Source of the DNA: Eledone cirrhosa
Taxonomy: Eukaryota
Assembly: GCA_964016885.1 (NCBI GenBank)
Contig: OZ024752.1
Coordinates: 4,960,001 to 5,024,000, forward strand
DNA length: 64,000 nt
Reading direction: 5' to 3'
The position numbers were made by a program, and so were the translations under genes. This document shows positions 17,903-59,831 of this stretch, piece by piece. A model generated the notes under the pieces. It saw only the letters and a program-made list of their open reading frames with translations, was not told where the DNA came from and searched no databases. Position 1 is the first letter of the stretch. The number at the start of each line of letters is the position of its first letter.

Positions 17903-17933
17903 CGCCTCTTCAAAAACAGGAAGAACAAGCTCG
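17903..17933 (+). CDS. robo: Robo juxtamembrane cytoplasmic short exon (31 nt)
   Basis: tttttcgtttctttgttgtggcAG acceptor and CG|GTAAGT donor. Phase 1 to 2 fits the TM exon. Encodes (T)PLQKQEEQA(R). Confidence 0.75.
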
Positions 17934-18041
17934 GTAAGTACAAAAAAACCGATATTTTTTCAAAGTCTTCCAATATTAAAATAACTGTTTCATAACATTT
18001 CAATGGTTGTCTTATTTTTATGTTATTTCACATTGAAATTT

Positions 18042-18113
<72 letters not shown>

Positions 18114-18167
18114 TGTGTGTGTATGTGTATACACACACGTTTACATATATATATATGTATATATGTA

Positions 18168-18233
<66 letters not shown>

Positions 18234-19127
18234 TTTACATATACATATATACATACATATGTATATATACGCACATATATATACACACATATATACATAA
18301 ATATATATACACACACACACACACACACGTATACACATATATATATATATGTATTTACATATATATATATACTTTTTTTTATGTATATAGATATATTTAT
18401 ATACTTTTTGTTACTCAGCATCTTCTGGCTTCCTCTTTGTCACTCTCTCTCTCTCCTTTTTTTCTGTACCACCAATCCCACTCTCTCTATCTTCTATCTA
18501 TCTCTGCCCTTTTTCTCTCTTTCTCTATTTCAATCAAATGCTTTTTTTTTTTTTTTTTGTCTTTCATATATTAATGAACTTGTTTATATTTAACTACAAA
18601 TAAACCTAAATTATTTGGTGTTGAAATTGTTCTTCTGTAGTTCTGAAGATACAAGACTATAAACAGAAAGTCTAAACTCTTTAAATGAAATTCTATGTCT
18701 TTGTTTTAATTCTGATGGAAATTTTGGATAAGAAGGAATCAACTTCATGACTCTTTGATAATTTGAGAAATATTAGAGAATGAATGAGAAACCTTGATTT
18801 AAATAATGAGAAATATTTTATTCCACACCTAATGACTTTACAGATTTTCTGTGTATTAAGTTATCTTTTTTTTTATTTAATTTTTATTTACAAAAATAAC
18901 AAGATATTACTACAACTACTACTATTACTACTACTACTAGCAATAATAATAATAATAATAATTGTTTCTAATTTTGGCACAAGGCCAGCAAGTACTTTAT
19001 TTTATCGACCCCATGAGGATGAAAGGCAAAGTTAACCTCGACGGGATTTGAACTCAGACCGTAAAGGGACGTAACTATGCTGGAAAGCATGGCGTCCAAC
19101 CCTCTACCGATACTGCCAATATAATAA

Positions 19128-21620
19128 TAGCATAACGCAAGAATGTACTGCGAGATGAACAAATAAAAATTAATACACAATGCCAAATCGCTTTTCCTAT
19201 GGTTAATCAGGAAGCGCGTCCCACAGGAAGGTGCCAACCTGAGATCAAAAAGTCCTCCTCTGGAACAAACTCTTCTCCAATTATCGACTTGGATGGTCAC
19301 TTGATCGGGGATTGCCGCAACTCCAGCCCTCCAGATCCACCACCCAAACCACCTCAAAAAGAAAAACCTAAAAGGATGAAATGGACCCGAGAAGAGTATA
19401 AAGAAGTAATATATGCATATTACTATGCATTAGGTAAGCCATCACAAGACAGACACACTTTAAACTCCTACAAAATCTGGAAAACTCGGAATCAAGCTAG
19501 CAGACGTGATATGGATGGAAATAAGTTGGCAAATGTAAGGAGGTATATCTTCAGAAATAATAGACTCACAGACACTGAACTAACTGCGATCAAGTAGGCT
19601 GTGGAGAATGACATAAATATAAATGATGAAAGAACTGAAGAATCTCCTGGAGATAGTAACCAGTCACAAGTCTTTACTGAAAGACCTCCATCTGACCAAA
19701 TCACAAATAGGTTTGTAGAAATGAGAAGCCCTATTGAACCCACTGAAAATAACCAGGAGAGGGACTTAGAAACAGTAATTGAAAACCAAACATCTGCTGA
19801 AGAACACAGGGAGACTATGAAGGAATTAAAGCAAAAAATACTGAATGAGCTTGCAGTAGTAAAACATTCTAGTATAAATGTTAGAGAACCACTTCAAAAA
19901 CTCCCAAATACAATCCAAAATAGAAAACAAATAATGATTGGTAATTCTGTGACAAAAGAAATCATAGAAGAACTAGAACCTGATCTTACTGAGTTAAATG
20001 AAATCATTTATGCATCTGCTAGAGTAATTGAAACAAGTTGTTTACCTCCAAAAAAACAAAAAAGTCGAACCTTTGAGGTAAACCGATTTGGAGGAGTAGA
20101 ATTGAAAAGGAGATTGACGTAATGAGAGGAGAAATATCTTTATTGAGTGAGTTAACTGCTGGAAATGATATAAGATCCAAGAAGGTAAGAAAGCTAAAGA
20201 GAAAATATGGACTGTCTTCTAGAGAAGCAATAGTTTCAACAAAAGAATCTCTGAAACAAAAAGTCCAAGTAAAAGCCCAACGAATTCGTAGATTTGACAC
20301 CAAAGTCCGTAAGCTACTGACCTGTAATAGGATGCACCACCCAAAAGCAGATGTGGATCGTCTTTACCTTCCTAGAACTCAAGGAGGCCGTGGCCTGATC
20401 CAATTTGAACTTGCTTACAAGACCACCATCATTGGACTGGCCAAATACCTTGAAACAACTAACGACTGTATGCTGAAACTTGTTGAAAAGCATGAGAGAA
20501 GTAAGAAGCTTCATTCTATCTTGAAGGAGAGCAAAAAAATATGCTACTGATCTCATGCTTGATACCCAGGCTGGACAGACTAAAGAAACTGTTGCAACTG
20601 ATGCTGCTAGCCACATAAAAGCACAGGCAAAAGCAAATGGACAAGGACAATTAGCATCAAATTGGGAGCAGAAACCTCTGCATGGCAAATAGGTGGCCCA
20701 TAGCAAACAAGCTGATGTTGACCAAAAGCACACCCATCAGTGGCTACGTAGTTCATGGCTAAAGGCGGAGAGTGAAGGCTTCATCTTAGCTGCCCAAGAT
20801 CAAAGCTTATTGACTCATAATTACCAGGCCAATGTGATGAGAAACGGAATAAACCCAATGTGCCAATTCTGCAATGCTGAGGTTGAAACACTTAGTCTCT
20901 GGATGTAAAGTTTTAGCACCAGTAGAATACAAATATAGACATGACAGAGTTGGCCAATATCTACACTGGGTAATATATCGGCATTACAAAATCAAAGCGG
21001 AAGACAAGTGGTACAATCATCACCCTGAGGCTGTAACTGAAGGAGAAAAAGTAACAATTCTCTGGGACTTTCCTGTACATAATGACAGGACCATAAAAGC
21101 AAATAGACCTGACATCATTGTAAAAGATCAACATAACAAGGTCTGTTTATTGATAGATATGAGCATCACATGTGATCACAATATCGCTGCAAAAGATTTG
21201 ACAAGCTACGAAAATATAAAGATCTGCTTATTGAAATTGAGAAAATGTGACACCTCAAGGCCGTTACAATACCAGTGATTGTGGGAGGACTGGGAATGAT
21301 CAAGAAAGGAACAGAACAGTATTTGCGAATGATTCCTGATTTACCCTCTCTGCACGAGGTGCAAAAAATTGTTTTCACTGACACTGCACACGTATTGAGA
21401 AGAGCACTATCTCTGTAAGATTGATATCCCTCCTTGTATTTACATATCCATATGCACATGTGTATATATGTATACTGGTTTTTTTTTAAATTATAATCAA
21501 TGTGCTGTATTAACTGGCTTACCAATGCACACTGTGAATTTATTTGCCCTAGGTGTCAGGAAGACACCCGGTATGTATCTCAGAAACAATAATGAAAGAA
21601 AATAAAAATGATAATAATAA
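19128..21620 (+). mobile_element. R4/Dong-like RLE non-LTR retrotransposon, internally deleted and frameshifted
   Basis: N-terminal KWTREE...YY motif, HPKADVDRLYLPR..GGRGL, CCHC knuckle CQFC....ETLKHLVSGC, RHD motif, WDF.V..DRTIKANRPDII...LLIDMS (PD-(D/E)xK nuclease). Ends in (TAA)n. No RT core. Confidence 0.85.
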
Positions 21621-22014
21621 TAATACTGTTAATACTACAACTAATTCTATTACTAATAATGATACTATAGCTAATACTAATACTGTTCTGTTTACTAACT
21701 ACTATTAATAAAATCTTAAAAACAACAGCAACAACAAAACCCATGCTGATAATATTTGTTTTTAATATAGGTACAAGAACAGCAATTTGGGGACGGGGGA
21801 GCAAAGGAGTATGTATAGTAATGGTTTCTGATTTAGGCATATGACCAATGACCAACAATTTAGGGAGAGGGGAAAGTCAATTAGATTAACCCCAGTGCAT
21901 TACTGGTACTTTATGTATTGACCCTGTAAGGATGAAAGGTAAAGCTTGGCAGGATTTGAACTCAGAACATAAAGGGCCGTAATTCTATGCCGTGAAGCAT
22001 GTTGTCCGAACATA

Positions 22015-22390
22015 ATGATAGGGATGATATTAAAGATGGTGATCGTGGTGATGGTGATGATGATCGTGGGGATGATGATGTATGATGACAATAATGATGA
22101 TAATGATAGTGATGATGTTGGTGATGTCCATGATGGTAGTGACAATAATGATGATGATGATGATCGTAATAGTGATGATGACGACGGTGATAATAATGAT
22201 GATTATGATGACTGTGATAGCAATAGTGAACATAATAATAGTGATGATGATGATTATGATGATGATGTCCATGATGATGATGACAATGGCGATAGTGAAA
22301 GTAATAGTGATGATAGTGACACTGTTGATGATGATGACAAAGCAATGATGAAGATGATGATGAGGACAATGATGATGATGGTGAAATTTG
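22015..22390. repeat. Degenerate (GAT)n repeat
   Basis: Direct observation. Confidence 0.9.
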
Positions 22391-22730
22391 GTGATGAAGC
22401 AATGAAGAATGATCAACTTACTAAAGATGAACTTACTAAAATGTTAAAGCAAGTTCATTAAAATATGTTGAATATATAAAAGGATGTGTTTTTTTTTTAT
22501 TATTAAATGTGAGCCAATCTTCTTTGAAAGTGCCACAGAACTATTTAAAGACTTTCAAGTAGCCAATCAAATTATCATTTTGTAAAATATCACTGAAATG
22601 TGCATTTTACATCATGTATGTCTTTCATAATTATGGTAACTTATTTCAGAAATATCTAACTTCCTCTCCTTTTATCTATGTATTATGTGTGTGTATACGC
22701 ATATATATATATATATATATGTGTGTGTAT

Positions 22731-22788
<58 letters not shown>

Positions 22789-22871
22789 ATGTATATATAT
22801 ATATATGTGTGTGTGTATGTATATATATGTGTGTGTGTATGTGTGTGTATATATATATATATAGGCACATG

Positions 22872-23203
22872 GAGGCACATGGCTTAGTGGTTAGAGCATT
22901 GGCCTTGCAATCGAAAGGTTGTGAGTTCAATTCTCAGACCAGGTGATGTGTTGTTTCCTTGAGCAAGACACTTTATTTCACATTGCTCCAGTTTACTCAG
23001 CTGTAGAAATGAGATGATAGGGACCCCAGTCCCTATCATTCCACTGCAAAGTGGTCGTGGAGGTGCCACGGCAAAAAAAGCACCCAGCACTCACTGTAAA
23101 TGAGGTTGGTGTTAGGAAGGGCATCCAGCTGTAGAAATCAAGCCAGAATCAGTTCCCGTCCCACCCTTGCAAGCAGGGAAAAGCGGACGTAAAATGATGA
23201 TGA

Positions 23204-23206
<3 letters not shown>
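22872..23206 (+). mobile_element. tRNA-derived SINE with RTE-type tail (near-identical copies ~33500-33846, 42628-42953, 45236-45578, 50899-51237)
   Basis: A box TGGCTTAGTGG, B box GAGTTCAATTC, conserved body, tail shared with the RTE LINE, (GAT)n end. Confidence 0.85.
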
Positions 23207-23263
<57 letters not shown>

Positions 23264-23309
23264 CCTCCTCCTCCCTACTTATTTGCCACTTCGCTGTTAT
23301 TATCATCAT

Positions 23310-23347
23310 TAGTAGTAGTAGCAGTAGTAGTAGAGCTGGTGGCAGTG

Positions 23348-23394
<47 letters not shown>

Positions 23395-23795
23395 GGTGGT
23401 GGTGGTGATGGTAGTAGTAGTAGTAGTGGTGGTGATGGTAGTTGTAGTAGTAGTAGTAGTAGTAGTGGTGGTGATGGTAGTTGTAGTAGTAGTAGTGATG
23501 GTATTGATGGTAGTAGTAGTAGTGGTGGTGATGGTAGTAGTGGTGGTGGTGGTGGTGATGGTAGTAGTAGTAGTGGTGGTGGTGGTGATGGTAGTAGTAG
23601 TAGTGGTGATGGTAGTTGTAGTAGTAGTAGTGGTGGTGATGGTAGTTGTAGTAGTAGTAGTGGTGGTGATGGTAGTAGTAGTAGTAGTAGTGGTGGTGAT
23701 GGTAGTAGTAGTAGTTGTAGTAGTAGTGATGGTAGTAGTAGTAGTAGTAGTAGTGATGGTATTGATGGTAGTAGTAGTAGTAGTAGTAGTAGTAG
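23310..23795. repeat. (GTA)/(GGT) compound microsatellite
   Basis: Direct observation. Confidence 0.9.
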
Positions 23796-23927
23796 CAACA
23801 ACAGATTGGTGGAACTTTTGGTATTTGTTCTGGTTGCTTAGTTTCTGAGTTCAAATACCACTGAAGTCATGGCTTGATCAAATCATATTGCCCCATCACC
23901 CTTATGATTTGTAGCTTTAATAATTCT

Positions 23928-24127
23928 NNNNNNNNNNNNNNNNNNNNNNNNNNNNNNNNNNNNNNNNNNNNNNNNNNNNNNNNNNNNNNNNNNNNNNNNN
24001 NNNNNNNNNNNNNNNNNNNNNNNNNNNNNNNNNNNNNNNNNNNNNNNNNNNNNNNNNNNNNNNNNNNNNNNNNNNNNNNNNNNNNNNNNNNNNNNNNNNN
24101 NNNNNNNNNNNNNNNNNNNNNNNNNNN
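23928..24127. other. Assembly gap (200 N)
   Basis: Run of N. Confidence 1.
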
Positions 24128-26639
24128 TACAAACTGGTCTCGTCTGATTTCTCAACTTGCCTCATGCCTTCTTTTTGATTTTTCTCTGTCTACTATCGCC
24201 CCCACCACCCTACATACATACTTGAGGCCACGGAGAGTACCTACTTTACACAGTCACTCGAATTGCTAGAAATACCAACAAAATTTACCTCAAATCATGT
24301 CCTATCTTCAAAAGAAGGGACACATTTAGTCATATATATATAACACTTGAAATAGCAGCAAAAGATTCTTAACGTTTCGGACACTAATCCATCAGAAGAA
24401 GATAGAGTTAGAAACTCCCTCCTCACTGTGAAGTGGTCTTGTAGGTGACATAACAAAAAGCGCCCAGCACACACTGTAAATGTGGTTGGTGTTAGGAAGG
24501 GTATCCAGCTGTAGAAACCAAGCCGAGAAACAGTTCTGTATGAGCAAGATATGGTCATCTGACCCAACTTGCCTCAAACGGGGCTAACCATCTAACCTAT
24601 GATAGCATGGAAAATAGACATTAAACAATGTTGTTGATGATGATGATGATGATATATAGGCTTAATTTATTTATCATTGACTTTTATTTTAATAATTATA
24701 TTTCTTATTGATCTTTATTTATAGATTTATCCATTAATATATGCTGAACTATGAAAAAAACAGTTAAAGTTTAGTACTTAGTTCATTGTTTTCAGAAGGT
24801 TAATTGACCATAATTAATCAATATATGGACTAATCAATAGTAGTTATGCAACTTCATATTATTAGTCTCAGTAATATGGATCCATTTCACCGTCTTCATA
24901 AGAAACAATTTATAGGTTTGAGGTCTTTTAGAAATGTTATTTTATATGTATGTCCAAGTGAAAAAGGGAGAATAGAGATTAGTTTGTGTTAACTAAAAGC
25001 AATAGCAAGGAGGGCAGTGTGTTTCAATGTGTATAGGATCCAAGACAAGCGTTTAGAGAGAACAAAACATGTATAAGCCAAGCATTAAATATATAGGCAG
25101 TGCGTAAATATCAAAGTTATAGTAAGGGGAAATACAACCTAAGTACTTGAAAAAGTGTTTATTTCTTTACAATTGTTTCAATAAATTTTAAATACATTCC
25201 AGCCAAGGAACTGGGGCCATGCTGGGGCACTGCCACCACATATATATATCTCAATATTTTTTATATTTTAGCAATCAGAAAGTATATGTTAAATATTAGT
25301 TATAACTAAATAATTTATTAGGATAATTAACAGTATCCTTTAATTACATATACCCCGGAAATGTTACCAATATAAAACAGTACATATATAATATATTAAT
25401 TGTTTCTACTATTGGCACAAGGCCAGCAATTACCCAGTACATTACTGGTACTTTATTTTATCTACTCCGTAAGGATGAAAGGCAAAGTTGAATCTCTTTT
25501 AAAATAATTTAATTATAGGTCATTTTGACATAATTCTAATAAATGGAAAAAAAAAGGAAGTAACTCTAAACTAGCGTAGGTGGGTGCAGGCATGTGTCTC
25601 TGCGTGCATGTACATTTATATAGAAGCCTCCAGTCCACACTGTTAAGTGGTTGTGTAAGTTACATGACAAAAAGCACCCAGCACACACTGCTAGGTGGTT
25701 GTGTAAGTGACCCAACAAAAAGTACCCAGTCGACACTGTTAAGTGATGGTGCAGGTGACATGGCAAAAAAGCCCAGTCGACACTGTTAAGTGGTTGTGAA
25801 GGTGACCTGACTAAAAATATCCAATCCACACTGTTAAGTTGTGGTGTAGGGGATATGGCAAAAAGGCCCAACCCACACTGTAAAGTGGTTGTGTATGTGA
25901 CATGACAAAAAGCACCCAGCCCACACTGTTAAGTGGTCGTGTAGGTGACACAACAAAAAACACCCAGAACACACTGTAAAGTGGTTGTGTAGGTGACACG
26001 ACAAAAAGCACCCAGCCCACACTATTAAGTTGTCGTGTAGGTGACCCGACAAAAAGTACCCAGTACTCACTGTAAATGAGGTTGGCACGAAGAAGGGCAT
26101 CCAGCTGTAGAAACCAAGTTTAAATCGGTTCTGTATGAGTATGTCATGGTTACTTGACCTGGCATTGATCACAACAGGATAACCCATCTAACCCATGCCA
26201 GCGTGGAAAAATGGATGTTAAACGGTGATGTTGATGATATGTGTATGTCTATGTAGATGCGCGGGGATATGGAAATACTCAGTTTGGTATCTGAGTTCAC
26301 AGTTAGCCAGCTGAGAGTGTGTGACCCTTAGTTCTTGTTTGGACTTTACTTTAGGAGAGGGAAAACTCTGATGTAAAATGCGATGGCAGCCAATGATTTT
26401 GACCTTTTCTTCTTTTTGTATACCTCTCATCATTGTTCTGAGGGTGGGATTGGTCCAGTGCAAGGTCTTTCTTCACTTAAAAATGTGTCAAGCACAGACA
26501 CCACTTGATCTAAACAATTTTCATGTGTGCAGCCTTTTCTTTTTTCTTTCATTGCAGCATATGCAGAAAGGAATCTAAGTCCTTGACAGTGCTAAAAGCT
26601 CATGTTCATGCTACCCGTCATTATATCTATATAGATATC

Positions 26640-27230
26640 TGTGTGATAGCAGGTGTGGAGGAGGGCTTCTTATTATGAAGTCTGCGGATGGTCTGCCAGA
26701 ACATTTTATTTGCTGATCTGAAGTCAGATTCCAGCTTAACCCCAAAGTGCTCCCATGTCTTAACTTTGGATGCTGCAATTCTTTGTGTACCAGAGGTGCA
26801 AGAAGGCGGACTTACTTCCAAGCCAAGATTTGTAAGTCTTCTTCTTTGATCGGATGGCATCTTTGACCTCTTGATTGAACCAAGGGGTCCTCCTGTCATC
26901 CAGCGCCACACTAAGCCTATGGTCACAAATTTTGTGTAATGACCAAAAGAATACAATCGTGAATACAAACGGCGGCCGAAATGGGATTCCTCCGAAGGGT
27001 CTTTGTAGTAATGTTACTTGATAGAGTGTGTAGCTCAGAGATCAGAGAGTCACTCCAGGTAGAGCCGTTACTTCTCTGAATTGAGAGATCACAGCTACGA
27101 TACTAAGGGCATGTGGTTAGAATGTCTCAGGAAAGAATCACTGGAGAGATTTTATGGGCAAAACCAACTGGCAAGAGACCCAGGTATAGACCCTGAGCAA
27201 GATGTTTGGATGACATCCATGAGCTTGGCT
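26640..27230. mobile_element. RTE-clade LINE fragments in inverted arrangement
   Basis: Minus: KTWEHFGVKLESDFRSANKMFWQTIRRL. Plus: AEMGFLRRV...IRESLQVEPLLL*IERSQLRY*GHVVRM...PTGKRPR. Confidence 0.65.
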
Positions 27231-27597
27231 GGCTCAAATCCCGCTAAGGTTAGCTTTGCCTTTCATCCTTACAGAGTTGGTAAAATAATGTACCAGTTTG
27301 CACTAAGGTCGATTTAATTGACATTCACCACCCCAAAGATTGTGGGCCTTGTGCCTAAATCAGAAAGCATTATTTAGGCAGTGAAGTGTCAGAATTGATA
27401 GAGCACTGGACAAGATTTTAAGGTATTTAGTTAAATATCTATTACATTCTGAGTTCAAATTATGCCAAAGTTGATTTTGCCATTTACCCATCTGAGGTTT
27501 GATGAAATAAGGTTCCAATCAAAAACTAGTGTCAATACAATTGACTGTTGCCTCAACTTATCTATATATAGATTTGAGCGACTTCTGTCTGTTCGTC

Positions 27598-27770
27598 CAT
27601 CACACACTAGAGATGACTGAGGAAGGAAGGGATGATGACATCATCACACACTAGAGATGACTGAGGAAGGAAGGGGTGATGACATCATCACACACTAGAA
27701 ATTACTGAGGAAGGAAGGGGTGATGACATCATCACACACTAGAGATGACTGAGGAAGGAAGGGATGGTGA
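27598..27770. repeat. 44-bp tandem repeat, 4 copies
   Basis: catcacacactagagatgactgaggaaggaagggatgatgacat. Confidence 0.9.
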
Positions 27771-27993
27771 CAAACTACAGAAAACAGCATCTAACATTCA
27801 CTACACTTGTGTGTACAATCTTCACATAGACACCAACACATACATATACGTGTCAGCGTGTTAGAAACTATTAATCCCTCTCCAATATTGTGACTATTTC
27901 TTGATGTCAAAAATGGTTTTCCCACAATTTCTAGAATCTCCTCTTCTCTCCAATGAAGCACCTTCCCTATTCTATCGATGGTTCTATCCCAAC

Positions 27994-28026
<33 letters not shown>

Positions 28027-28101
28027 CTCTCTCTCTCTCTATCGCTTCCTTATTAGCTTTGCCAGTTATTATCACTGTGATTTTTCCCTGTCCTTGTCCA
28101 G

Positions 28102-28134
28102 ATATGCTGTTGTACCTGCTGCCTATATGAAATG
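28102..28134 (+). CDS. robo: Robo cytoplasmic 33-nt symmetric exon
   Basis: tttttccctgtccttgtccAG acceptor and TG|GTGAGC donor. Phase 2 to 2. Encodes (R)YAVVPAAYMK(W). Confidence 0.65.
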
Positions 28135-28504
28135 GTGAGCTAAACCAGTGATCACTTGCTTTCCTTTTATTTACTATTTCAAATCACATGCTCTCCTTTG
28201 CCAACACCCTCCTCTCTACACCAACAACACCACTACCACTACACCTACCTTCCTACTTATCTTATTTCTTTGCTTGTTTTTTTTGTGTGTGTGTGTTTTT
28301 TTTTTGTTATCTATTCTTTTTCCTCGTGTCTTGTTTAATTTCAGTTTTAATTCTCATCTATATGATATTTATTTCTACCTATCTCCATCTTTTTTTAATT
28401 TCTTGGCAATTCTATTTTTTTTATATTTTCACTCCTGTATTCAATTTAAATGAAAACCAAATATTTTTCTTATTAGTTGTGTGTTTGATGGCAACAGTAT
28501 GTCC

Positions 28505-28596
28505 TCTAAGTCGCTATAGAAACTGTCTTCTAAGTCGCTATAGAAACTGTCTTCTAAGTCGCTATAGAAACTGTCTTCTGAGTCGCTATAGAAACT
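28505..28596. repeat. 24-bp tandem repeat, ~4 copies
   Basis: ctaagtcgctatagaaactgtctt. Confidence 0.9.
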
Positions 28597-28734
28597 AAAC
28601 CTGTCAGACTAGGTTTCAAATCTTCACTTACCTTACAGTCACTAATACATAAATATATATATATATATATTATATATATATTATATATATATATATATAT
28701 ATAATATATATATATATATTATATATTATATATC

Positions 28735-29055
28735 AACATATGTTAACCTTGGTCTTCCTCTCCTAGTGTGTCCATGTAGGGGCTCCCAAAGGAGCACTGA
28801 GTGCAATGTCAAATCTGGATGTCGGTGAGCATGTCCAGCCAACCTCAGTCTTCTCTGTGTCACTTTTGAGCTGACTTTTGGGATGCTCCCATACAGCTCT
28901 GAGTTTTTCATCCTCAGTGTATACTGATTAATGTTCAGAGCCATCCTCAGCATTCTGTTGGAGATGCAGGATATGGCAGCGATAATGAGGGACAGAGACC
29001 GCTGGAGAGAACTCGTCCATGGATCTCGGGAATTTTACCCGCCTTAGATAGATAT
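28735..29055. mobile_element. RTE LINE 3' end with inverted 5' segment
   Basis: 28735-28958 minus: RRLRLAGHAHRH...LWEPLHGHTRRGRPRLTYVD. 28959-29055 plus: 3' terminus with TAGA tail. Confidence 0.75.
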
Positions 29056-29782: not shown

Positions 29783-29814
29783 TATATATATATATATTAT
29801 ATATATTATATATC

Positions 29815-30207: not shown

Positions 30208-30209
30208 AT

Positions 30210-30241
<32 letters not shown>

Positions 30242-30367
30242 ATATATATTATATATATATATATATTATATATATCATATATATTATATATATATTATAT
30301 ATATATATTATATATATATTACATATATAATATATATATTACATATATATATATATATTATATATAT

Positions 30368-48783: not shown

Positions 48784-48894
48784 TATTATATAAATCTTAC
48801 TATATATGTGGGTGTATATGTATAGATATATATGGATGTGTGTATGTATATATAGATGAGTGTGTGTGCATTCATATACGTGTGTGTATGTATG

Positions 48895-48924
<30 letters not shown>

Positions 48925-48925
<1 letters not shown>

Positions 48926-49070
48926 AAGTAAAAGGTAAACAGAAATAACAAAACAAATGGCACAGTATATAGAAGGAATATATTAATTTAATGCTTGAAA
49001 TAGCTGGAAAAGGGTTTTAACGTTTCAGACACTAGTCCTTCATCAGGAGAAAAAGTGAGAAATTAAAGAA
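48925..49070 (-). mobile_element. Penelope-like short repeat with minimal hammerhead ribozyme motif
   Basis: Minus strand CTGATGA-AGGAC-TAGT-GTCT-GAAACGTT. Related degenerate copies at ~50330-50480 (+) and ~24335-24400 (-). Confidence 0.6.
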
Positions 49071-49300
49071 CAATATGTGTATGTATATATAATGATAATA
49101 ATAATTATTTCTACTCTTGGCCCAAGGCCAGCAATTACCCAGTGCATTACTGGTACTTTATTTTATCGACCCCGTAAGGATGAAAGGCAAAGTTAACCTC
49201 GGCGGGATTTGAACTCAAAATGGCAAGGGCCGTAACTCTATGCGTCAAGGATAAAATATTGTAGTTTGCTTGAAGTATTCTATTTTATATATAATATGGG

Positions 49301-49652
49301 AAGTGATATATGTAAGAAGGGTAAAACAATGCAAAATGGGACAGTACAACGAAGGCAATGAAAAATTTAGTAACCTGATAATCTTTGATTTGTTTTTTGT
49401 TGTTTCTTTCATCCTAATATTCCACTTTGAAATTAGATTTCAAAGTGGAATAGACTGGAAGGTTTTTTTTTTTGTTTTTGTTTTTTCTCTGAGAGTTCCT
49501 TATACTCCTCTGACAAAGGAAATTTTAAGTCCCAAAATATTGGGATAAAAGAAACAACAATGAAAAGAAAGATTACCAAGTGACTAACTTTTTTATCACC
49601 TTCAACGTACCGTCCATTTTGCATTGTCTTAGCCTTCTTATATATATCACTT
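49301..49652 (+). mobile_element. Degenerate fold-back element (family E)
   Basis: Diverged inverted arms ~49301-49420 / 49540-49652, with CTGACAAAGG...GAAAC at the right-arm boundary. Confidence 0.45.
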
Positions 49653-49654
49653 TT

Positions 49655-50175
49655 TAGGGAGCTGCTTCCTCTGTTGACAAAGAAGGGTTTCTCCCTGCGT
49701 ACGAAAAGATGGTTATATGATGCCTGTGTGAGATGCGCGATGCTGCATGGTAGTGAGACATGAGCAGCAACTGCAGAGGATGTGCAAAAGGCTGGAGAGA
49801 AATGAAGCAAATATGTTCCGTTGGATGTGCAATGTCAATGTGCATGAACGACCAAGCATAGATGAGTTGAGAAAGAAACTGGGTATAAGAGGGGTAAGTT
49901 GTGGTGTGCAGGAGAGAAGGCTGAGATGGTATGGACATGTGATGCGCATGGAAGATGACCGATGAGTGAGGAAGTGCCAGGAAGTCCCATTGGAGGGAAG
50001 ACGCAGTAGAGGAAGACCACGAAAAACATGGGCGGAGGTGGTGAGAGCTGACCTCAGATCGCTGAAACTCACCGAGGAGATGACGAAGGACCGTGACAAG
50101 TGGGAGATGCTGTGATGAATAGGACCCATCCAACCCTTGCAAGCAGGGAAAAGCGGACATAAAATGATGATGATA
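49655..50175 (+). mobile_element. RTE/BovB-like LINE 3' end with (GAT)n tail
   Basis: LERNEANMFRWMC...QERRLRWYGHVMRME...RGRPRKTW. The 3' terminus caacccttgcaagcagggaaaagcggac is shared with the SINE tails. Confidence 0.8.
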
Positions 50176-50504
50176 TATAGTGGAGGAAGCTCGTCGCCCA
50201 ATGTTCCACAAGGGACTGGAGGAACTAAGACTAAGACTAAGATGATAGATAGATATATAGATATATATATAAACCTGTTTTTTCTGAAAGAAATTATTTT
50301 CATCTCTGCCACTGCCTACTTTCCTCTATTTTTCTGTTCTTTAATTTCTCATTCTATTTTCTAATAAAGGACTAGCATCTGAAACTTTAAGACTCTTTTC
50401 CTACTACATCAAGCGTAAAACTAATATATTTCTTCATTGTACTCTGTCATTTACATTGTTATTTCTGTTTGCCTTTTGCATACATATATACAGTCACTTA
50501 TACA

Positions 50505-50555
<51 letters not shown>

Positions 50556-52689
50556 GTGTATATATATATATATACGCATATATATTGGTGCCACAACATC
50601 CAGCCCGAAACAAATGAGGTTGTGTAGGTGTCACGACAAAAAACACACAGTCCACGCTGTAATGTGGCCGTGTAGGTAACACGGTAAAAACCTCCCAGTC
50701 CACACTGTAAATGTGGTTGGGGTTAGGAAGGGCATCCAGCCGTAGAAAACCCGCCAGACAGTGCTATGCGAGCAAGACAACCACTCTTGCCTCAAGTGGG
50801 AAAACACCCGTCCAAACCCATGCAAGCGTGGAATATGGACGTTAAACGATGATGATGATGATGATGATGATGATATACGCATATATATATATATATAAGG
50901 CACATGGCTTAGTGGTTAGAGCATTGGCCTTGCAATCGAGAGGTTGTGAGTTCAATTCTCAGACCGGGTGATGTGTTGTGTCCTTGAGCAAGACACTTTA
51001 TTTCACATTGCTCCAGTTTACTCAGCTGTAGAAATGAGATGATAGGGACTGGGGTCCATATCATTCCATTGTAAAGTGGACGTGGAGGTGCCACGGCAAA
51101 AAAGCACCCACCACTCACTGTAAATGAGGTTGGTGTTAGGAAGGGCATCCAGCTGTAGAAATCAAGCCAGAATCAGTTCCCGTCCCACCCTTACAAGCAG
51201 GGAAAAGCAGACATAAAATGATGATGATGATGATGATACGTACACATATCTACATACACACATACATATAGATATTGAGGTAGAAAATCTTTGTGTTTGA
51301 ATCCCTTATGAGTAAACAATGTAATTATATAATAGTCTGTGTAGTGACATCTTTCCAAGTGTTTGTAATCAGTAGCATATATCTACAAAACTAACTTGTA
51401 AGCTATGTAATTATAGATACAATTTCTCTTTCTTATCACCTAGCTCTGTGATTGGTAATAGCGAAACTCTGCCCTTTATGCTAAAAACACTACTTACAAG
51501 ATCAAAAAACACAATAAATCTTGTAGTAACTAGATTACCTATTCAATTAACATCTCAGCTTTGTAATTATATTTACCAAATATCTCTCTCTCCAACAGTA
51601 ATACAATTTGTAACCAAAATTCTTTTAAATTATCTGATTTTCTGGTCTCTATATAGTGTGTAATTCATTGGTAATTATTCTTTATAGATTCTCCCCCCTC
51701 CCCACCAATTTAATTAGTTGTTTTTGTTGTTGTTATTCAATGACAGATCAGTTGTTATCAAACACACCTATCACCAAATGCATGCTAGCCATGACCTACC
51801 TGACCTATCCTGGTCTACATCATCTAATATATTCTTCCTTTTTAAAGACAATGAGGTGTAATTTGATTGTAATTATTGGCAGCGATTTCTAACAGTTGAG
51901 CAACCACTTAGATGTGTTATACTGTTGGCTCATATATTTCTTTGTTGCATTTGTAAAGCTGCTGGCCTTGTGCCAAAAGTAGAAACAATTATAATTATGT
52001 GGATACTAATCCTGAGAACATCTTCAGTTGCAATTCAGAGCTTGTATCTTTCTCTAGACAAATGACTTCATATTTATTTAAGAACTATAAAATCCCACAC
52101 TTAGCCTATTTCATTTGCATCCAATTTTTTTTTAATGCAAAATCGAACTCTGAAAGTAACCTCCTTTGACTCAGGATCTACATACCCTACCACTGCACAA
52201 CATATCTTCTCTCTTCTTCTTCCTTAGAGGGCTGTGGAGGTAGTCCTCACTCTTTCCAGCAAGTCCTGCCAGAAACAACTGTCTCACTCCTATAAATTCA
52301 ACACTATCTTCTGCACTTGACATCCACTACACTTCCCCACTTCATCATATCCACATCATGTAGCAGCCAATATCTTACTTCTGTATAAGAAGGCAAATAC
52401 GATATTTGTGTGTAATAAACATATATGTCTCACTATGAGGGTTTTAATCTCTGATTATATCATTGTTAATTAAACATTTCATATATTACCATTCTTTCTT
52501 AATTAGATTAATTACAGCCAATCGAAAATCCTATAACTTTACATCTATTTTATTATTATGAAGAGTTGTCTGCAATGCCAAGAGGTGAAACATTAAATCG
52601 TGATAGTAGTGACCCAGTTTGGATTAAATTTTGTACCATTATCGGCTTCGTATTTTGTACTTTACCTACTTCTCTTCTTGTTATATGAC

Positions 52690-52860
52690 ATATACTCAAT
52701 GGTTAAAGAGACAGTTCGAGATTGGTGAGCCAGACTAAGGCATCATTTGCAGTAATATGGATTGCCTCTAGGGCACCAGGAAAATGTCTGAGGGAGCAAT
52801 CCTGAACAACATGTAGCACTGTATGGTCAGGGTCTTCACAGTCACATTCTTCATTGATGG
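52690..52860 (-). mobile_element. LINE ORF2 C-terminal CCHC knuckle fragment
   Basis: CDCEDPDHTVLHVVQDC...WLTNLELSL. Confidence 0.55.
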
Positions 52861-53109
52861 AGATGATGAACCATCCCAGCACGTGCCATGTGGATCTGAC
52901 CAAAGGACACTCACTGCTAGAAGTGGTAGTCAATTTAACTAGTTTTCTTTATATTACATTAAGTTTATTACTTACTGAATATATGATCAACTTATATTTA
53001 CATATGTTCTAGTGCCGGTGTCTATGGATAATGTACCCTTACATCTCTATCCATGTAATTCTTATTGATTCAAAAATAGATATTTGGGTTTGTTGTACTT
53101 CGAGTTTAA

Positions 53110-53303
53110 CCCTTTAGCCTTTAAACTAGCCATATCAGGCCAGAATTTTCTCACCTCTCCTGTTCAAACCAGCCATAACTGTCTGCTCATACTGATGTTA
53201 ATGTATTGTTAAAAAATAAATAATATCAAAATCTCATAGATTTGATATTATGTGAGGTAAAGCCTTTACCATGAAAATATAGAGTAATGTAAATGCTAAA
53301 AGG
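53110..53303. mobile_element. piggyBac-like TTAA MITE (relatives at 8980-9148, ~37761-37975, ~61070-61200, ~63905-64000)
   Basis: TTAA|CCCTTTAGC...GCTAAAAGG|TTAA. Shared internal ccagaattctctcacctctt. Confidence 0.7.
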
Positions 53304-53506
53304 TTAAAGAATATTTCTGCAAGGAAATATGCTGAATTATATTGGATAAATAAGTATGAGGTAACTGATGAGGTTTTATTTGTCATTGTGCATCATTTAA
53401 AAATACTTGCTTCTGATTTGAAAAAAACAAAAACAACAACAAAAAAGTGGTATTTTCATCTTGACTCGCCACAATATATAGCCTCCATATAGTAAATATA
53501 CATATA

Positions 53507-53610
53507 CAGGGTGTCCCCCCAAAATGTATGCATACTTCAACAGCATTCTAATAAATATTTCCTGTACAGGTAATCAATGTATGTATACATTTTTTGGTGG
53601 TGACACCCTG
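53507..53610. mobile_element. Tc1/mariner-type MITE
   Basis: TA|CAGGGTGTC...GACACCCTG|TA with imperfect ~25-bp TIRs. Confidence 0.7.
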
Positions 53611-54130
53611 TATATGTTTGTGTGTTTAGGCTCATTAGACATAAAATCCTGTCAGTATCTATTGTGGTGAGCAGGGGTTAATACACAACATTATCAATGC
53701 GGTGAATTGGCAGTATCGGTAGAGGGTAGGATATGCTTTCCAGCATAGTTACATCCCTTTACGATCTGAGTTCAATTCTCGCCGAGGTTTACTTTGCCTT
53801 TCATCCTTACGGGGTCGATAAAATAAAGTACCAGTAATGTACTGGGATAATTGCTGGCCTTGTGGCAAAAGTAGAAACAATTATCAATTAAAGGTTGTTG
53901 GATTAGTTTCTATCAATCACATTCTTTTTCTTTTTTTTCTTTCACGTCTTTGTAACCGACATTTATATTTAGTCTCAATGCATCAGTGTGTGTGCACCTT
54001 TGTACCTCCCCTTTCTTATCCCCACCTCTACCAACACATCGATTCTGCTGTTCTAGTTTTATCTTTTACTTACCATTTCTCTATTACACAATATTACAAT
54101 TTCTATTTTTTTTCCCTTAATGCTTACCAG

Positions 54131-54145
54131 GACTTATCAATACAG
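54131..54145 (+). CDS. robo: Candidate 15-nt symmetric Robo microexon
   Basis: ttctattttttttcccttaatgcttaccAG acceptor and CAG|GTAAGA donor. Phase 2 to 2. Encodes (W)TYQY(R). Confidence 0.55.
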
Positions 54146-54679
54146 GTAAGACTTCACATCTCTACATGTTATATATAAATAATTCACTGTGTGTGTGTCT
54201 GTGTTTATGTGTGTGGGTGTGTGGGTGTGTGTACATATATATATGTATATATAAATATATACATTTAGCAAAACAAAACAAAAAACATTCAACTGTGTTA
54301 GTAGCAATTTTTATTTTTATAACAGGCTGAATGAATTGGTGGTGCATAACCTAATGAAACTTAAGTACCTGTATATGTCACTGTTGTAACTAATTATATA
54401 TATATAGTAAAATGTTCTCAGTAGATTTGGACACAGAAGGTCTTCTTGAGAAGAAATCCCCCTTATGCAAAGGTTTTTGCCCTTCTTACATTCTAAGGGG
54501 GCTTGACCCCCATCCAGGTCCTGGGTGCCTGTATGTCGACAGGATATGGAAGACTTGTGTATTCAAACCAGATACACACACACACATAACCAACTCCCCT
54601 CTCCCACCCCCCATATTCCCCCTTCCCCCTACCAAGTTCCCACCTTCCTCTCGCTCTCCCCCAAACTCCATAACTTCAG

Positions 54680-55325
54680 TCTTGACACTATCAACATTAG
54701 CACCATAAAAGGTAGATCCGGAGAGATTGTAGAGATGCTTGAATGAATGAAAGTCGATGTGTGTTGTGTACTAGAGACTAGATGGAGAGGTATGTCAGTT
54801 AGATTCCTCGTAGGAAAAAAACGTTGCTACAAATTTTTCTGGGTGAGAAATGACGATGGGCTAGGTGGAGTAGGGATTTTGGTAGCAGAAAAGTGGGTAA
54901 ACAAAGTTATTGCTGTAAATAGAGTAAATGACAGAATAATTAAACTTAGACTTGTACTAAACAGAACAACCATGACAATTATATCTACCTACACTCCTCA
55001 ATATGGATTTCCAGACATACAAAAAGACAGGTTCTATAAGTCCCTAATGCTCACTAACTCCCAAATAACCACAACTTCCTACGCATTACAGGTGACTTCA
55101 ACGGACATGTGGGACAACTCTCTGATGGCTTTGATGGGATCCATGGGGGTTACGGGTACGGTCCTAGAAACGAGGAAGGCTTCATACTACTGGAATTATG
55201 TGACACCAATAACCTATCCATCTGTAACATGAACTTGAGAAAACAAGACAGCCACCTAATCACATATAGATCAGGTGACCACACCAGCCAAATTGATTTC
55301 ATTGTTACTTGAAGATGAGACAGAG
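54680..55325 (+). mobile_element. RTE LINE AP-endonuclease fragment
   Basis: VDVCCVLETRWRG...GGVGILV...DRIIKLRL...GDFNGHVG...HGGYGYGPRNEEG...HLITYRSG..SQIDFI. Confidence 0.8.
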
Positions 55326-55354
55326 TGACATATATATACACATACATATATATA

Positions 55355-56128
55355 GTCATCAATCATAATAGCTGGTCCCTCTGTTGGGGGTAGTTTCACT
55401 CTCTCCCATTCATTCTCCACATTTATCAGTCTCTCATAGTGACATTTCCAGGCCTCCCTTTTCTGAACATCAGTAACACTAAGTACACCAGCACCATTCG
55501 AACACACTTATCTCCAACAACATCCTGATTTACACTGACACACTGCCTTGCAATGTGGAACGCCGCAAGTTTCTGATCTTCCCGACGCAGAACATTGGCA
55601 AACCTCCTAATCTCAGCCTCCCTGCATGCTAAGTACACTTGACGTCTAGCTTCTCTTTTAGCGGCTGTGTATCAGTCTCTACTCCCACCATTTTTCCACA
55701 TGTTCCATGCTAGTCTTTTGTCTTTAATGTCCCTATCTACCGTGCTGTTCCACCACCAAGTCACCCACTGTCTTGTCGGAGCTCTGCTCCAGCCACAAGT
55801 TTCTTCAGTAGCCTGCAGTAATTTGTCACATAAGAAATTCCAGTTATCATCTATGTCATACGATTCTAACTTGTCTTTTTTTTCGTCATACACATCTTGA
55901 AAGGGCTTTCCTAAATTAATATTTTATTGAAAGATCTTTTAGCCTCCACACCTTCCTATATGTCTCAATTTGTTTCTTGCTTATTTAGATGTCACTAACG
56001 ACTAATCTATGCTGGGGGGGGGGGGGGGTACATTCTTCTCTGGGGTATGCCTTAGTATTTGACACCATCTGTCTGTCTCATTGCCTAACTAGCAAGAATT
56101 TAATTTGGCTTATGTGCTCGCCTGATTG
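55355..56128 (-). mobile_element. RTE LINE endonuclease-RT linker fragment
   Basis: QHRLVVSD...VWRLKD...EETCGWS...TWWWN...WKNGGSR...WKCHYERLINVENEW. Confidence 0.75.
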
Positions 56129-57369
56129 GTGTTGCTGTGTGTGGTGTGTTGCTGTGTATGATGTGTTGCCTTGTGTGATGTGTTGTGTTGCTGTGTTTGT
56201 TGTGTTACCGTGTGTGATGTGTTGATGTGTGTGATGTGTTGCTGTGTGTGGTGTGTTGCTGTGTGTAGTGTGTTGACATGTGTGATGTGTGTGTTGCTAT
56301 GAATGTGTCTTTCATCGTTGTTGCTGTGTGTGATGTGTTGCCGTGTGTGATGTGTTGTGTTGTCGTGTGTGATGTGTTGCTGTGTGTAGTGTGTTGACGT
56401 GTGTGTTATGTTGCTGTGTGTGTTATGTTGCCATGTGTGATGCGTTGATGTGTGTGGTGTGTTGTTGTGTGTGATGTGTTGCTGTGTGTGGTGTGTTGTG
56501 TGTGGTGTGTTGATGTGTGTAGTGTGTTGACGTGTGTGATGTGTGTGTTGCTATGAATGTGTCTTTCATCGTTATTGTTGTGTGTGTGTGGGTTGTTGTA
56601 TTTGTGTTTTTTGTTACTGTTTTTACCTGTAAAATGCTGTCTTATGTTATTGTTGTGTGCTATATACGTATTGTTGTTTGCATGTTGTTGTTTGTTGTGC
56701 GAGCCTTATTTTGTGTTGTAAGTATGTTGCTGTGTGTTTTGTGTGTGTGTATTGTGTACATGTTGTGAGTGTGTTACTGTGTGTGTTCATGTTGTGTGTA
56801 CGTTGCTGAGTGTGTTGTTTGTACTGTATTGTGTGTGCGTGTGTAGCTTTGTGTGTTATTGCATGTATGCATATTATTGTTTGTATGTTGCTGAGTGTGT
56901 TGTGTGTGTGTTGTGTGCATGTTGTGTACTGTGTTGTGTGTGTGTTGCTGAGTGTATACATATTGTGTGTAGGTGGTGAGTGTGTTGTTGTGAACATATT
57001 GTGCACTCTGTTGTGTGTCAGTGTTCCTGTATGTATTGTTGTATGTATGTGTGCTGTATATTATGCTATATATATATCCATATGAATGGGGGTATGTGTG
57101 TTGTTGTTGTTTGAATTGCAGTTTTATTAGTTCTACACTACATAATAACAAGTGGCGTTGTCTGAAAAAGTAGTGTCAGATTTCAGTTGGAGGAGATGTC
57201 AACTAACGGTAGTAAAACACTTAGTGCTTAGTATTCTCTTGAGATACACACTACCGATATTGGAATCTCTGATTAAATCAATATCTCTTCTTCCTGCCGC
57301 GAACAAATAAAGAGAAGAAACTGTGGCAACAATCATAAAAGAAACACCACCAAATAACATACAACACTC

Positions 57370-58330
57370 TCAATACCAACAGTAACAAAGACACCATCAC
57401 CATCATCATCAACAGTAACAAAGACACCATCATCATCAACAGTAACAAAGACACCATCACCATCATCATCAACAGTAACAAAGACACCATCACCATCATC
57501 ACCATCATCACCATCATCAACAGTAACAAAGACACCATCACCATCACCATCAACAGTAACAAAGACACCATCACCACCATCATCAACAGTAACAAAGACA
57601 CCATCACCATCACCATCAACAGTAACAAAGACACCATCACCATCACCATCAACAGTAACAAAGACACCATCACCACCATCATCAACAGTAACAAAGACAC
57701 CATCACCATCACCATCAACAGTAACAAAGACACCATCACCATCACCATCAACAGTAACAAAGACACCATCACCATCATCATCAACAGTAACAAAGACACC
57801 ATCACCACCATCATCAACAGTAACAAAGACACCATCACCATCACCATCACCATCAACAGTAACAAAGACACCATCACCATCACCATCAACAGTAACAAAG
57901 ACACCATCACCATCACCATCAACAGTAACAAAGACACCATCACCACCATCATCAACAGTAACAAAGACACCATCACCATCACCATCACCATCAACAGTAA
58001 CAGTAACAAAGACACCATCATCATCATCAACAGTAACAAAGACACCATCACCATCACCATCAACAGTAACAAAGACACCATCACCATCACCATCAACAGT
58101 AACAAAGACACCATCACCATCACCATCACCATCACCATCAACAGTAACAGTAACAAAGACACCACCATCAACAGTAACAGTAACACAGACACCACCATCA
58201 ACAGTAACAGTAACACAGACACCACCATCAACAGTAACAGTAACACAGACACCACCATCATCAACAGTAACAAAGACACCATCACCATCATCAACATCAC
58301 CAACAACAACAAAGACACCATCATCAACAT
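57370..58330. repeat. ~30-bp variable repeat AACAGTAACAAAGACACC(ATC/ACC)n
   Basis: Constant core with variable trinucleotide spacer. Confidence 0.9.
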
Positions 58331-58549
58331 CATCATCACCAAAAAATAACAAAGACACCACCACCAACAACAACAACAACAAAGACACCATCACCATCAT
58401 CACCAACAGCAACAAAGACATCACCATCACCAACAACAAAGAGACTATCGCCATCGCCAACAACAAAGACATCACCATCACCAACAACAACAACAGCAAC
58501 AATATTACTAACCACACTATTGATAACAAACTCAATAACAGCAACAACT

Positions 58550-59625
58550 AATCCAGGCTCTGTTGCATTTTGGGCTGAGGAGGGTAAACTTTCCAAATAT
58601 CGGTCACTCCCCGGCAGTTGAGCCCGTAGTGGTGGAGACTTCTGGTGTCCTTGACCCTAGGACCACCTTCCTAGTCACCACCATCGGCACCCCGTAGTGG
58701 TGGAGACTTCTGGTATCCTTGACCCTAGGACCACCTCCCTACTCACCACCATTGGCACCCCGTAGTGGTGGAGACTTCTGGTGTCCTTGACCCTAGGACC
58801 ACCTCCCTACTCACCACCATTGGCACCCTGTAGTGGTGGAGACTTCTGGTGTCCTTGACCCTAGGACCACCTCCCTACTCACCACCATTGGCACCCTGTA
58901 GTGGTGGAGACTTCTGGTGTCCTTGACCCTAGGACCACCTTCCTAGTCACCACCATTGGCACCCCGTAGTGGTGGAGACTTCTGGTGTCCTTGACCCTAG
59001 GACCACCTCCCTACTCACCACCATCGGCACCCTGTAGTGGTGGAGACTTCTGGTGTCCTTGACCCTAGGACCACCTCCCTACTCACCACCATCGGCACCC
59101 TGTAGTGGTGGAGACTTCTGGTGTCCTTGACCCTAGGACCACCTCCCTACTCACCACCATTGGCACCCCGTAGTGGTGGAGACTTCTGGTGTCCTTGACC
59201 CTAGGACCACCTCCCTACTCACCACCATTGGCACCCCGTAGTGGTGGAGACTTCTGGTGTCCTTGACCCTAGGACCACCTCCCTACTCACCACCATTGGC
59301 ACCCCGTAGTGGTGGAGACTTCTGGTGTCCTTGACCCTAGGACCACCTCCCTACTCACCACCATTGGCACCCCGTAGTGGTGGAGACTTCTGGTGTCCTT
59401 GACCCTAGGACCACCTCCCTACTCACCACCATTGGCACAGAGATGGCTTCCTGCAGGTGTGAGCCTCGCAAGCTGGAATGGCTCTTATAGCACGTCTTCC
59501 TAACCATCTTCTGGGGAAACGCCTTCTCTATTCTGTCTCCCGAGGCCACAGACTGGTCAACACATGGGCCTCCATTTGCTCCTAATAGTGAGAGTTGGGG
59601 AGAGCAGGAGAGATGGAGGCAGTGG
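58550..59625 (+). mobile_element. CRE-like (RLE-encoding) non-LTR retrotransposon 3' fragment carrying the 68-bp expansion
   Basis: Flanks translate KYRSL...VETSGVL...TTIGTEMASCRCEPRKLEWL...GNAFSILS. Same family as 42960-43240. Confidence 0.6.
58623..59438. repeat. 68-bp minisatellite, ~12 copies, inside a LINE fragment
   Basis: Unit CCCGTAGTGGTGGAGACTTCTGGTGTCCTTGACCCTAGGACCACCTCCCTACTCACCACCATTGGCAC (58691 to 58759). Confidence 0.95.
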
Positions 59626-59766
59626 GAGTTTGGTTCCTTTGTGTTTGGACCTGGTGTATATGTATATATTTATTTACCATAGAAATGAAATAATTGTTAC
59701 TAACAACACTATTGACAACAACAACAACCACAGTAAATAAATTACAGTATTTCTTGACTTTTTCAG

Positions 59767-59831
59767 GAATACCAATGTACTATCTGCAGAACTTTCACAA
59801 AAAGAACCCCAGATGGTTGGCAACATGGCTG
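59767..59831 (+). CDS. robo: Robo cytoplasmic exon (65 nt)
   Basis: ttcttgactttttcAG acceptor and G|GTAAGA donor. Phase 2 to 1 and open in the frame required by the upstream exons: (R)NTNVLSAELSQKEPQMVGNMA. Confidence 0.7.

What the first reader, a model, noticed from the sequence alone, without database searches (positions are those of the whole stretch)
17903..59831. Robo juxtamembrane tail assembled from tiny exons over 42 kb, two of them frame-neutral
Seen: after the TM exon the frame continues through 31-, 33-, 15- and 65-nt exons with compatible phases (1-2, 2-2, 2-2, 2-1), giving ...GMYS-TPLQKQEEQA-RYAVVPAAYMK-WTYQY-RNTNVLSAELSQKEPQMVGNMA. The two symmetric exons can be skipped independently without frameshift and carry four tyrosines (YAVV, AAYM, TYQY). 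Known: vertebrate Robo1/2 signalling is tuned by microexon splicing. Inference: combinatorial splicing could add or remove phosphotyrosine or sorting motifs. Automated annotation easily misses such exons.
Basis: partly seen in the sequence, partly recalled or inferred. Interest (0 to 1): 0.7.

Follow-up and report, generated by a model that had tools for sequence, protein, structure and literature searches.

The report
Octopus Robo tail microexons, TG acceptor
The tiny exons in this octopus nerve-guidance receptor gene are real and already annotated in relatives, and the one unusual feature is that the first of them is likely spliced at a rare 'TG' site as well as the normal 'AG', which would change the sequence next to a conserved tyrosine.

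Summary
The four small exons exist at 17903-17933, 28102-28134, 54131-54145 and 59767-59831 with the stated phases. They belong to one Robo gene spanning over 520 kb. They are not missed by annotation: 13 of 13 listed full-length Octopus RefSeq models contain all four.

The 15-nt exon behaves as a cassette: near-identical cuttlefish-like assemblies occur with and without it. The 33-nt exon is in 14 of 14 octopus models and 0 of 10 decapod-type proteins, so its skipping within a species is not shown.

Most relatives' transcripts extend the 31-nt exon by 9 nt upstream (S-IVAA-P instead of S-T-P). In this genome that extension follows TG, not AG, and the intron offers no other source for it. This fits the rare class of TG-AG tandem acceptors known from human RYK and DLG4. 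It changes a mollusc-conserved juxtamembrane tyrosine from YSTP to YSIV.

TG use in this species, TG in relatives' DNA, tissue specificity and any signalling effect are unshown. Verdict: an ordinary annotated exon cluster with one modestly interesting splicing twist.

The parts
12303..12468 (+). Exon for the end of the third FN3 domain
   Evidence: AG/GT ends and translation; its 3' end matches the letters joined in front of the TM exon in contigs of 3 runs
13337..13498 (+). Transmembrane exon (162 nt), ends in ...GMYS plus 1 nt; GT donor shared by both acceptors
   Evidence: 100% identical to O. sinensis Robo over 53 aa; one contig in each of 4 of 4 laid runs covers exactly 13336-13498
17864..17893 (+). 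Branch-point-like TTAAT (17864-17868), pyrimidine tract, and TG dinucleotide at 17892-17893: the inferred non-canonical acceptor
   Evidence: 12 of 14 pyrimidines before the TG against 10 of 14 before the AG; use of the TG is inferred, not shown, in this species
17894..17902 (+). 9-nt optional extension of the 31-nt exon (gives S-IVAA-P instead of S-T-P), ending in the canonical AG
   Evidence: Same 9 letters joined to the TM exon in contigs of X1 and X5; IVAA in 11 of 14 octopus and 2 of 10 decapod-type proteins; no other source in the intron
17903..17933 (+). 31-nt exon, phase 1-2, not skippable in frame; peptide conserved across molluscs
   Evidence: present in 24 of 24 cephalopod proteins counted
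28102..28134 (+). 33-nt symmetric exon (YAVVPAAYMKW); likely octopod-specific; skipping within a species not seen
   Evidence: 14 of 14 octopus models, 0 of 10 decapod-type proteins
54131..54145 (+). 15-nt symmetric cassette microexon (TYQYR); creates Y-R-N at the junction with the next exon; UGC at -10 and 76-nt AG-free zone upstream
   Evidence: 13 of 14 octopus, 2 of 10 decapod-type; P0004 vs P0034 and P0031 vs P0033 differ only by it
59767..59831 (+). 65-nt exon, phase 2-1
   Evidence: matching peptide in all 24 cephalopod proteins with the tail anchor

Best explanation
These are real exons of an octopod Robo gene, in which the 15-nt exon is likely an alternatively spliced microexon, the 33-nt exon is likely an octopod-specific and normally included exon, and the 31-nt exon likely has two acceptors 9 nt apart: a non-canonical TG and the canonical AG. 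Mechanism by analogy with the model in PMC2374985 (inferred): the intron is defined on the downstream AG, and exon ligation can then occur at the upstream TG, where the pyrimidine tract ends. The choice changes the residue three after the conserved juxtamembrane tyrosine from P (YSTP) to V (YSIV); that is shown from sequence. Including the 15-nt exon adds a Y-R-N; also shown. These would switch between an Abl/Crk-type YxxP site and an AP-2-type YxxPhi site, and add a Grb2-type YxN site (motif meanings recalled, except YxxPhi/AP-2 from PMC4559387; no binding tested).
For: Exons and phases. Same peptides in RefSeq. Collinear whole gene on G000:C12:4,754,097-5,281,350. All four combinations of IVA and the 15-nt exon occur in four near-identical assemblies (0-2 aligned mismatches). 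Of 4 laid runs, the downstream junction was displayed for 2 (X1, X5) and both go from 13498 into the 9-nt extension. The 4.4-kb intron has no N and only two IVA-coding 9-mers, neither preceded by AG; one is the extension itself. The pyrimidine tract abuts the TG, with a pyrimidine at -3 and a branch-like motif 30 nt upstream. PMC2374985: six human TG-AG tandems at 9 nt with TG use of 0.06-0.77, and no case of an orthologous AG replacing a TG. The tyrosine is conserved in scallops and oyster (YSVP) and two gastropods (YSAV).
Against: The downstream junction of the contig identical to this window (X19) was not displayed, so TG use is not shown in this species. No relative's genomic DNA at this acceptor was obtained, so TG conservation is inferred. 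The base after the TG is T, whereas TG sites prefer a purine there. RefSeq isoform models are not independent observations (3 species), and 14 of 29 members of the octopus cluster were not listed. No octopus RNA evidence of 15-nt exon skipping was seen; the O. vulgaris model may simply miss it. The UGC plus long AG-free zone occurs in 14 of 342 pseudo-acceptors, weak support for 1 of 5 exons examined. No tissue data. Two freshwater-mussel Robos differ at this place: one reads RYYTGEP and one has no tyrosine there.
Confidence: 0.68

Rival explanations
1. Relatives have an ordinary AG-AG tandem acceptor, and this lineage (or this haplotype or assembly) changed the upstream AG to TG, so the IVA isoform is not made here.
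For: No relative's DNA was seen at the site; this species' own junction was not displayed. AG-AG tandems are far commoner than TG-AG ones (TG sites about 0.02% of introns).
Against: It needs loss of an acceptor used in 11 of 14 octopus models and also in cuttlefish-like assemblies. The 9 nt are identical to those in RNA contigs of two other organisms. PMC2374985 found no TG/AG interchange among orthologs.
Confidence: 0.15
2. One reading: both the 33-nt and 15-nt exons are independently regulated neural cassettes in octopus, giving four tyrosine-motif isoforms.
For: All four combinations keep the frame. RefSeq lists only some isoforms and 14 of 29 cluster members were not shown. Decapod-type proteins lacking the 33-nt exon could reflect skipping rather than absence.
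Against: The 33-nt exon is in 14 of 14 octopus models and 0 of 10 decapod-type proteins. It has no UGC near its acceptor and only a 38-nt AG-free zone.
Confidence: 0.25
3. The splice variation is real but nearly neutral: short in-frame insertions in a poorly conserved, probably disordered linker, with no effect on signalling.
For: The region between TM and CC1 varies widely in length and sequence across Robos. Octopods carry several lineage-specific in-frame exons in the tail. Short tyrosine motifs arise often by chance.
Against: IVA and the 15-nt exon peptide (TYQYR/NYQYR) are kept between octopods and cuttlefish. Scallops also have Y-R-N at this place. Efficiently used TG sites correlate with conservation in mammals.
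Confidence: 0.35

Closest known systems
TG-AG tandem 3' splice sites (Szafranski et al. 2007, PMC2374985: RYK intron 7, DLG4 intron 5, SMARCA4 intron 29; 23 GT-TG introns in Drosophila, PMC4528330)
   Same: TG 9 nt upstream of a canonical AG, GT donor, pyrimidine at -3, in-frame 3-aa insertion, both forms occur in relatives.
   Different: Mollusc gene; +1 base is T, not a purine; use in this species and TG conservation are not shown; no report for cephalopods appeared in my searches.
Mammalian Robo1/2 microexon 6b (Johnson et al. 2019, PMC6687390)
   Same: Few-residue splice insertions in a Robo receptor.
   Different: 6b is an extracellular Ig3-Ig4 linker repressed by NOVA; the exons here are cytoplasmic and not homologous. 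The Ig3/Ig4 intron exists here, but 0 of 24 cephalopod proteins have an insert.
Mouse Robo1 alternative exon 18 (primer table of PMC6687390)
   Same: Alternative exon in the cytoplasmic juxtamembrane region: the primers translate to KKRNGLT and SSGGRP, similar to the peptides around the TM of Arapaima Robo1.
   Different: No sequence similarity or homology shown; the passages read give neither its length nor its function.
eMIC/Srrm234-dependent neural microexons (Torres-Mendez et al. 2022, PMC8797185)
   Same: The 15-nt exon is symmetric, has UGC near the acceptor and a long AG-free zone.
   Different: Neural specificity and eMIC dependence not tested; the 33-nt exon lacks these features.
Drosophila Robo1 AP-2 motifs YLQY and YQAGL (Chance and Bashaw 2015, PMC4559387)
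   Same: Tyrosine-based endocytic motifs control Robo signalling.
   Different: They lie at residues 1090 and 1233, far into the tail rather than next to the membrane; the resemblance of YQY to YLQY is not homology.

Membership tests
Robo receptor | Five Ig plus three FN3 domains | tested here: met
   Pfam on the ortholog P0003: 5 I-set and 3 fn3 stretches; best PDB match human ROBO2 ectodomain, E 1.6e-181; own genome has collinear exons for the ectodomain
Robo receptor | Single transmembrane segment | tested here: met
   Exon 13337-13498
Robo receptor | Cytoplasmic CC motifs | tested here: inconclusive
   PYATTTL and NWAELLPPPP found in the O. sinensis ortholog, and PYATTTL in own genome; their labels CC1 and CC2 are recalled; CC0 and CC3 were not assigned
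Robo receptor | Slit binding through Ig1 | not testable with these tools
   No binding test made
TG-AG tandem acceptor | Genomic TG directly before the extended exon, with an AG within 28 nt and a GT donor | tested here: met
   TG 17892-17893, AG 17901-17902, donor GTAAGT at 13499
TG-AG tandem acceptor | No alternative canonical source of the inserted bases | tested here: met
   the window's only N run lies outside this intron
TG-AG tandem acceptor | Transcripts of the same species use the TG | tested here: inconclusive
   Junction shown for two other organisms (X1, X5), not displayed for X19
TG-AG tandem acceptor | TG confirmed in genomic reads and conserved in orthologs | not tested
   No genomic reads or relative's DNA at this site obtained; metagenome pattern scan empty
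Neural (eMIC-type) microexon, 15-nt exon | Short, symmetric, alternatively included | tested here: met
   alternative inclusion shown in cuttlefish-like assemblies, not in this species
Neural (eMIC-type) microexon, 15-nt exon | UGC near acceptor and long AG exclusion zone | tested here: met
   background 14 of 342 pseudo-acceptors have both
Neural (eMIC-type) microexon, 15-nt exon | Neural-specific inclusion dependent on Srrm234/eMIC | not testable with these tools
   Runs carry no tissue labels and are contigs
Cassette exon, 33-nt exon | Both inclusion and skipping within one species | tested here: not met
   14 of 14 octopus models include it, 0 of 10 decapod-type proteins do; the sample is limited
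Robo microexon 6b homolog | Insertion between Ig3 and Ig4 | tested here: not met
   Exons here are cytoplasmic; 0 of 24 proteins have an Ig3-Ig4 insert

The most novel reading that the evidence does not exclude
A non-canonical TG acceptor has been kept in Robo from octopods to cuttlefish and works as a regulated signalling switch. It turns the mollusc-conserved juxtamembrane tyrosine from a YxxP site (fixed form in scallops and oyster) into a YxxV site (fixed form in two gastropods), and combines with a neural microexon that adds a Y-x-N site.
Probability: 0.2. Interest if true: 0.7.

Novelty: new member of a known kind. Interest (0 to 1): 0.38.

Why it matters
TG acceptors are about 0.02% of human introns and need unknown cis signals (PMC2374985). 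A heavily used one in an axon-guidance receptor, kept across coleoids, would give a comparative test case outside vertebrates and flies. It would also link a 3-residue splice choice to a specific tyrosine motif that can be assayed. The exon cluster itself is already in public annotation and adds little.

Tried and rejected
No run was on record as RNA in the run search; the kinds of X1, X5, X11 and X19 are guesses, supported by exon-only coverage. Reads could be laid only on the TM exon region, so junctions at the 31-, 33- and 15-nt exons were not viewed directly.

A separate 9-nt microexon coding IVA was sought and rejected. A degenerate pattern for the 31-nt exon found nothing in metagenome contigs. 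Two further homolog searches gave no new isoform cluster; the one new hit was an unspliced ORF of a downstream exon. The ESM Atlas gave only low-score unrelated hits. Four look-ups of earlier findings showed nothing.

A 6b-like microexon in the Ig3-Ig4 intron: 3 weak candidates, none supported by proteins. The 1-aa isoform pairs of Gigantopelta and 3-aa pairs of scallops are not at this acceptor. Homology of YQY with fly YLQY was rejected by position. Human ROBO1 Y932 was looked up as a possible equivalent tyrosine; the passage read does not place or characterise it enough. No fold or complex was predicted, as the region is a short, probably disordered tail.

Full report
Observation. The window is repeat-rich animal DNA with a few short exons on the + strand. 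The TM exon is 13337-13498. It is followed by exons of 31 nt (17903-17933), 33 nt (28102-28134), 15 nt (54131-54145) and 65 nt (59767-59831), across introns of 4.4, 10.2, 26.0 and 5.6 kb. The 33- and 15-nt exons can be dropped in any combination without frameshift; the 31-nt exon cannot. A scan of the 42 kb for symmetric, open exons with good splice signals found 2 candidates at the stricter setting (these two) against 1 on the reverse strand, so the signals alone are modest evidence.

Gene identity. The TM exon peptide is 100% identical to Octopus sinensis 'roundabout homolog' and 74% to scallop Robos. The ortholog has 5 Ig and 3 FN3 domains and its best solved relative is human ROBO2. Exons for the whole protein lie in order on G000:C12 from 4,754,097 to 5,281,350. 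This is an octopod Robo; its tail differs from the three named Octopus species at a few residues.

Which exons are used. I counted 24 cephalopod proteins that reach the tail: 14 octopus models from 3 species (13 RefSeq, 1 O. vulgaris) and 10 decapod-type proteins (2 named Sepia pharaonis, 8 unnamed assemblies assigned by similarity). Dropped before counting were 4 unspliced read-through ORFs and 6 fragments without the tail anchor. Only 15 of 29 and 15 of 17 cluster members were listed, and models from one genome are not independent. The 31- and 65-nt exons are in 24 of 24. The 33-nt exon is in 14 of 14 octopus and 0 of 10 decapod-type proteins. The 15-nt exon is in 13 of 14 and 2 of 10. P0004 and P0034 differ only by the 15-nt exon, as do P0031 and P0033, which makes it a cassette in a cuttlefish-like species. 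So annotation has not missed these exons, and only one of the two symmetric exons shows skipping within a species.

The unexpected part. The intron has no gap and no other AG-flanked source for these codons. In 4 of 4 laid runs one contig covers exactly the TM exon. The downstream letters were displayed for 2 of the 4 (X1, X5; 4 and 8 differences from the window), and both continue with the 9-nt extension. They were not displayed for X11 or for X19, the contig identical to the window. Four near-identical assemblies show all four combinations of this extension and the 15-nt exon. The pyrimidine tract ends at the TG, with a branch-like TTAAT 30 nt upstream.

How it most likely works. PMC2374985 (read: parts 1-4 of 6 of the main text) describes TG acceptors that occur only beside an AG within 28 nt. 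It lists six at 9 nt, several heavily used (RYK 0.77, DLG4 0.62). It proposes that the AG defines the intron and TG is chosen at the second step, and it found no ortholog with AG in place of TG. PMC4528330 (passages) lists 23 GT-TG introns in Drosophila, 22 with a similar alternative splice. The site here fits in spacing and -3 base, not in the +1 base. I judge it about 80% likely that the TG is used in this species; that is inference, since neither its own junction nor a relative's DNA was seen.

Protein consequence. Shown: the tyrosine before the junction reads YSTP or YSIV depending on the acceptor, and the 15-nt exon adds YQYR and YRN. Scallops and an oyster have YSVP, two gastropods YSAV, and scallops have YRN nearby; two freshwater-mussel proteins deviate. 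Inferred: YxxP is an Abl/Crk-type site and YxN a Grb2-type site (recalled, from no call), and YxxPhi an AP-2 site, as for fly Robo (PMC4559387, passages). No binding was tested, and a neutral reading stays open.

Comparison with known Robo splicing. Mammalian microexon 6b is extracellular and NOVA-regulated (PMC6687390, passages and section 6) and has no counterpart in 24 of 24 cephalopod proteins. The same paper's primer table shows an alternative mouse Robo1 exon 18 in the juxtamembrane region, a closer positional parallel. C. elegans sax-3 has a 15-nt alternative splice site affecting the intracellular domain (PMC12084653, passages). Short optional segments in Robo tails are thus a recurring theme. 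The 15-nt exon has UGC at -10 and a 76-nt AG-free zone, features of eMIC-dependent exons (PMC8797185, passages); 14 of 342 pseudo-acceptors share both, so this is weak support. Reviews PMC10084454 and PMC12308364 (passages) were used for family features; PMC7644594 (passages) did not help. No supplements were read; supplementary microexon tables of comparative studies could list the 15-nt exon.

Novelty. Searches listed no paper on cephalopod Robo splicing or a cephalopod TG acceptor; the library lacks most subscription journals. The exons and the IVA isoform are in RefSeq models. What seems unremarked is that the IVA form needs a TG acceptor in this genome. This is a new member of a known kind; interest 0.38.

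Noticed in passing
G000:C12:5024200-5024250 (200 bases past the window end; L006): A further symmetric 51-nt exon (EYHENTLRLCHDPIYQK), present in 14 of 14 octopus models and 0 of 10 decapod-type proteins, with a 71-nt AG-free zone.
   Followed up: partly
window 11312-11464 and G000:C4 near 322,564,200-322,564,360 (L005): A 153-bp piece covering part of a Robo FN3 exon and its downstream intron is duplicated on another contig at 98.7% identity.
   Followed up: partly
Octopus Robo proteins P0013 vs P0010, P0014, P0018, P0019, P0021, P0003: Further in-frame optional segments (16, 17, 34, 35, 50, 64 aa) deeper in the tail vary between RefSeq isoforms; the annotated alternative splicing lies mostly there.
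   Followed up: no
window 3912-8946: A 52-bp tandem repeat of about 97 copies at 98% identity in a Robo intron.
   Followed up: no
window 58623-59438: A 68-bp tandem repeat of 12 copies at 97% identity, about 330 bases upstream of the 65-nt exon.
   Followed up: no
window 19136-21278: Broken reading frames that look like a LINE-type retrotransposon in the intron after the 31-nt exon (resemblance recalled, not tested).
   Followed up: no
scallop Robo isoforms P0045/P0006, P0041/P0042, P0044/P0043: A 3-aa optional insert (GKY) before the proline-rich motif occurs in three scallop species.
   Followed up: no
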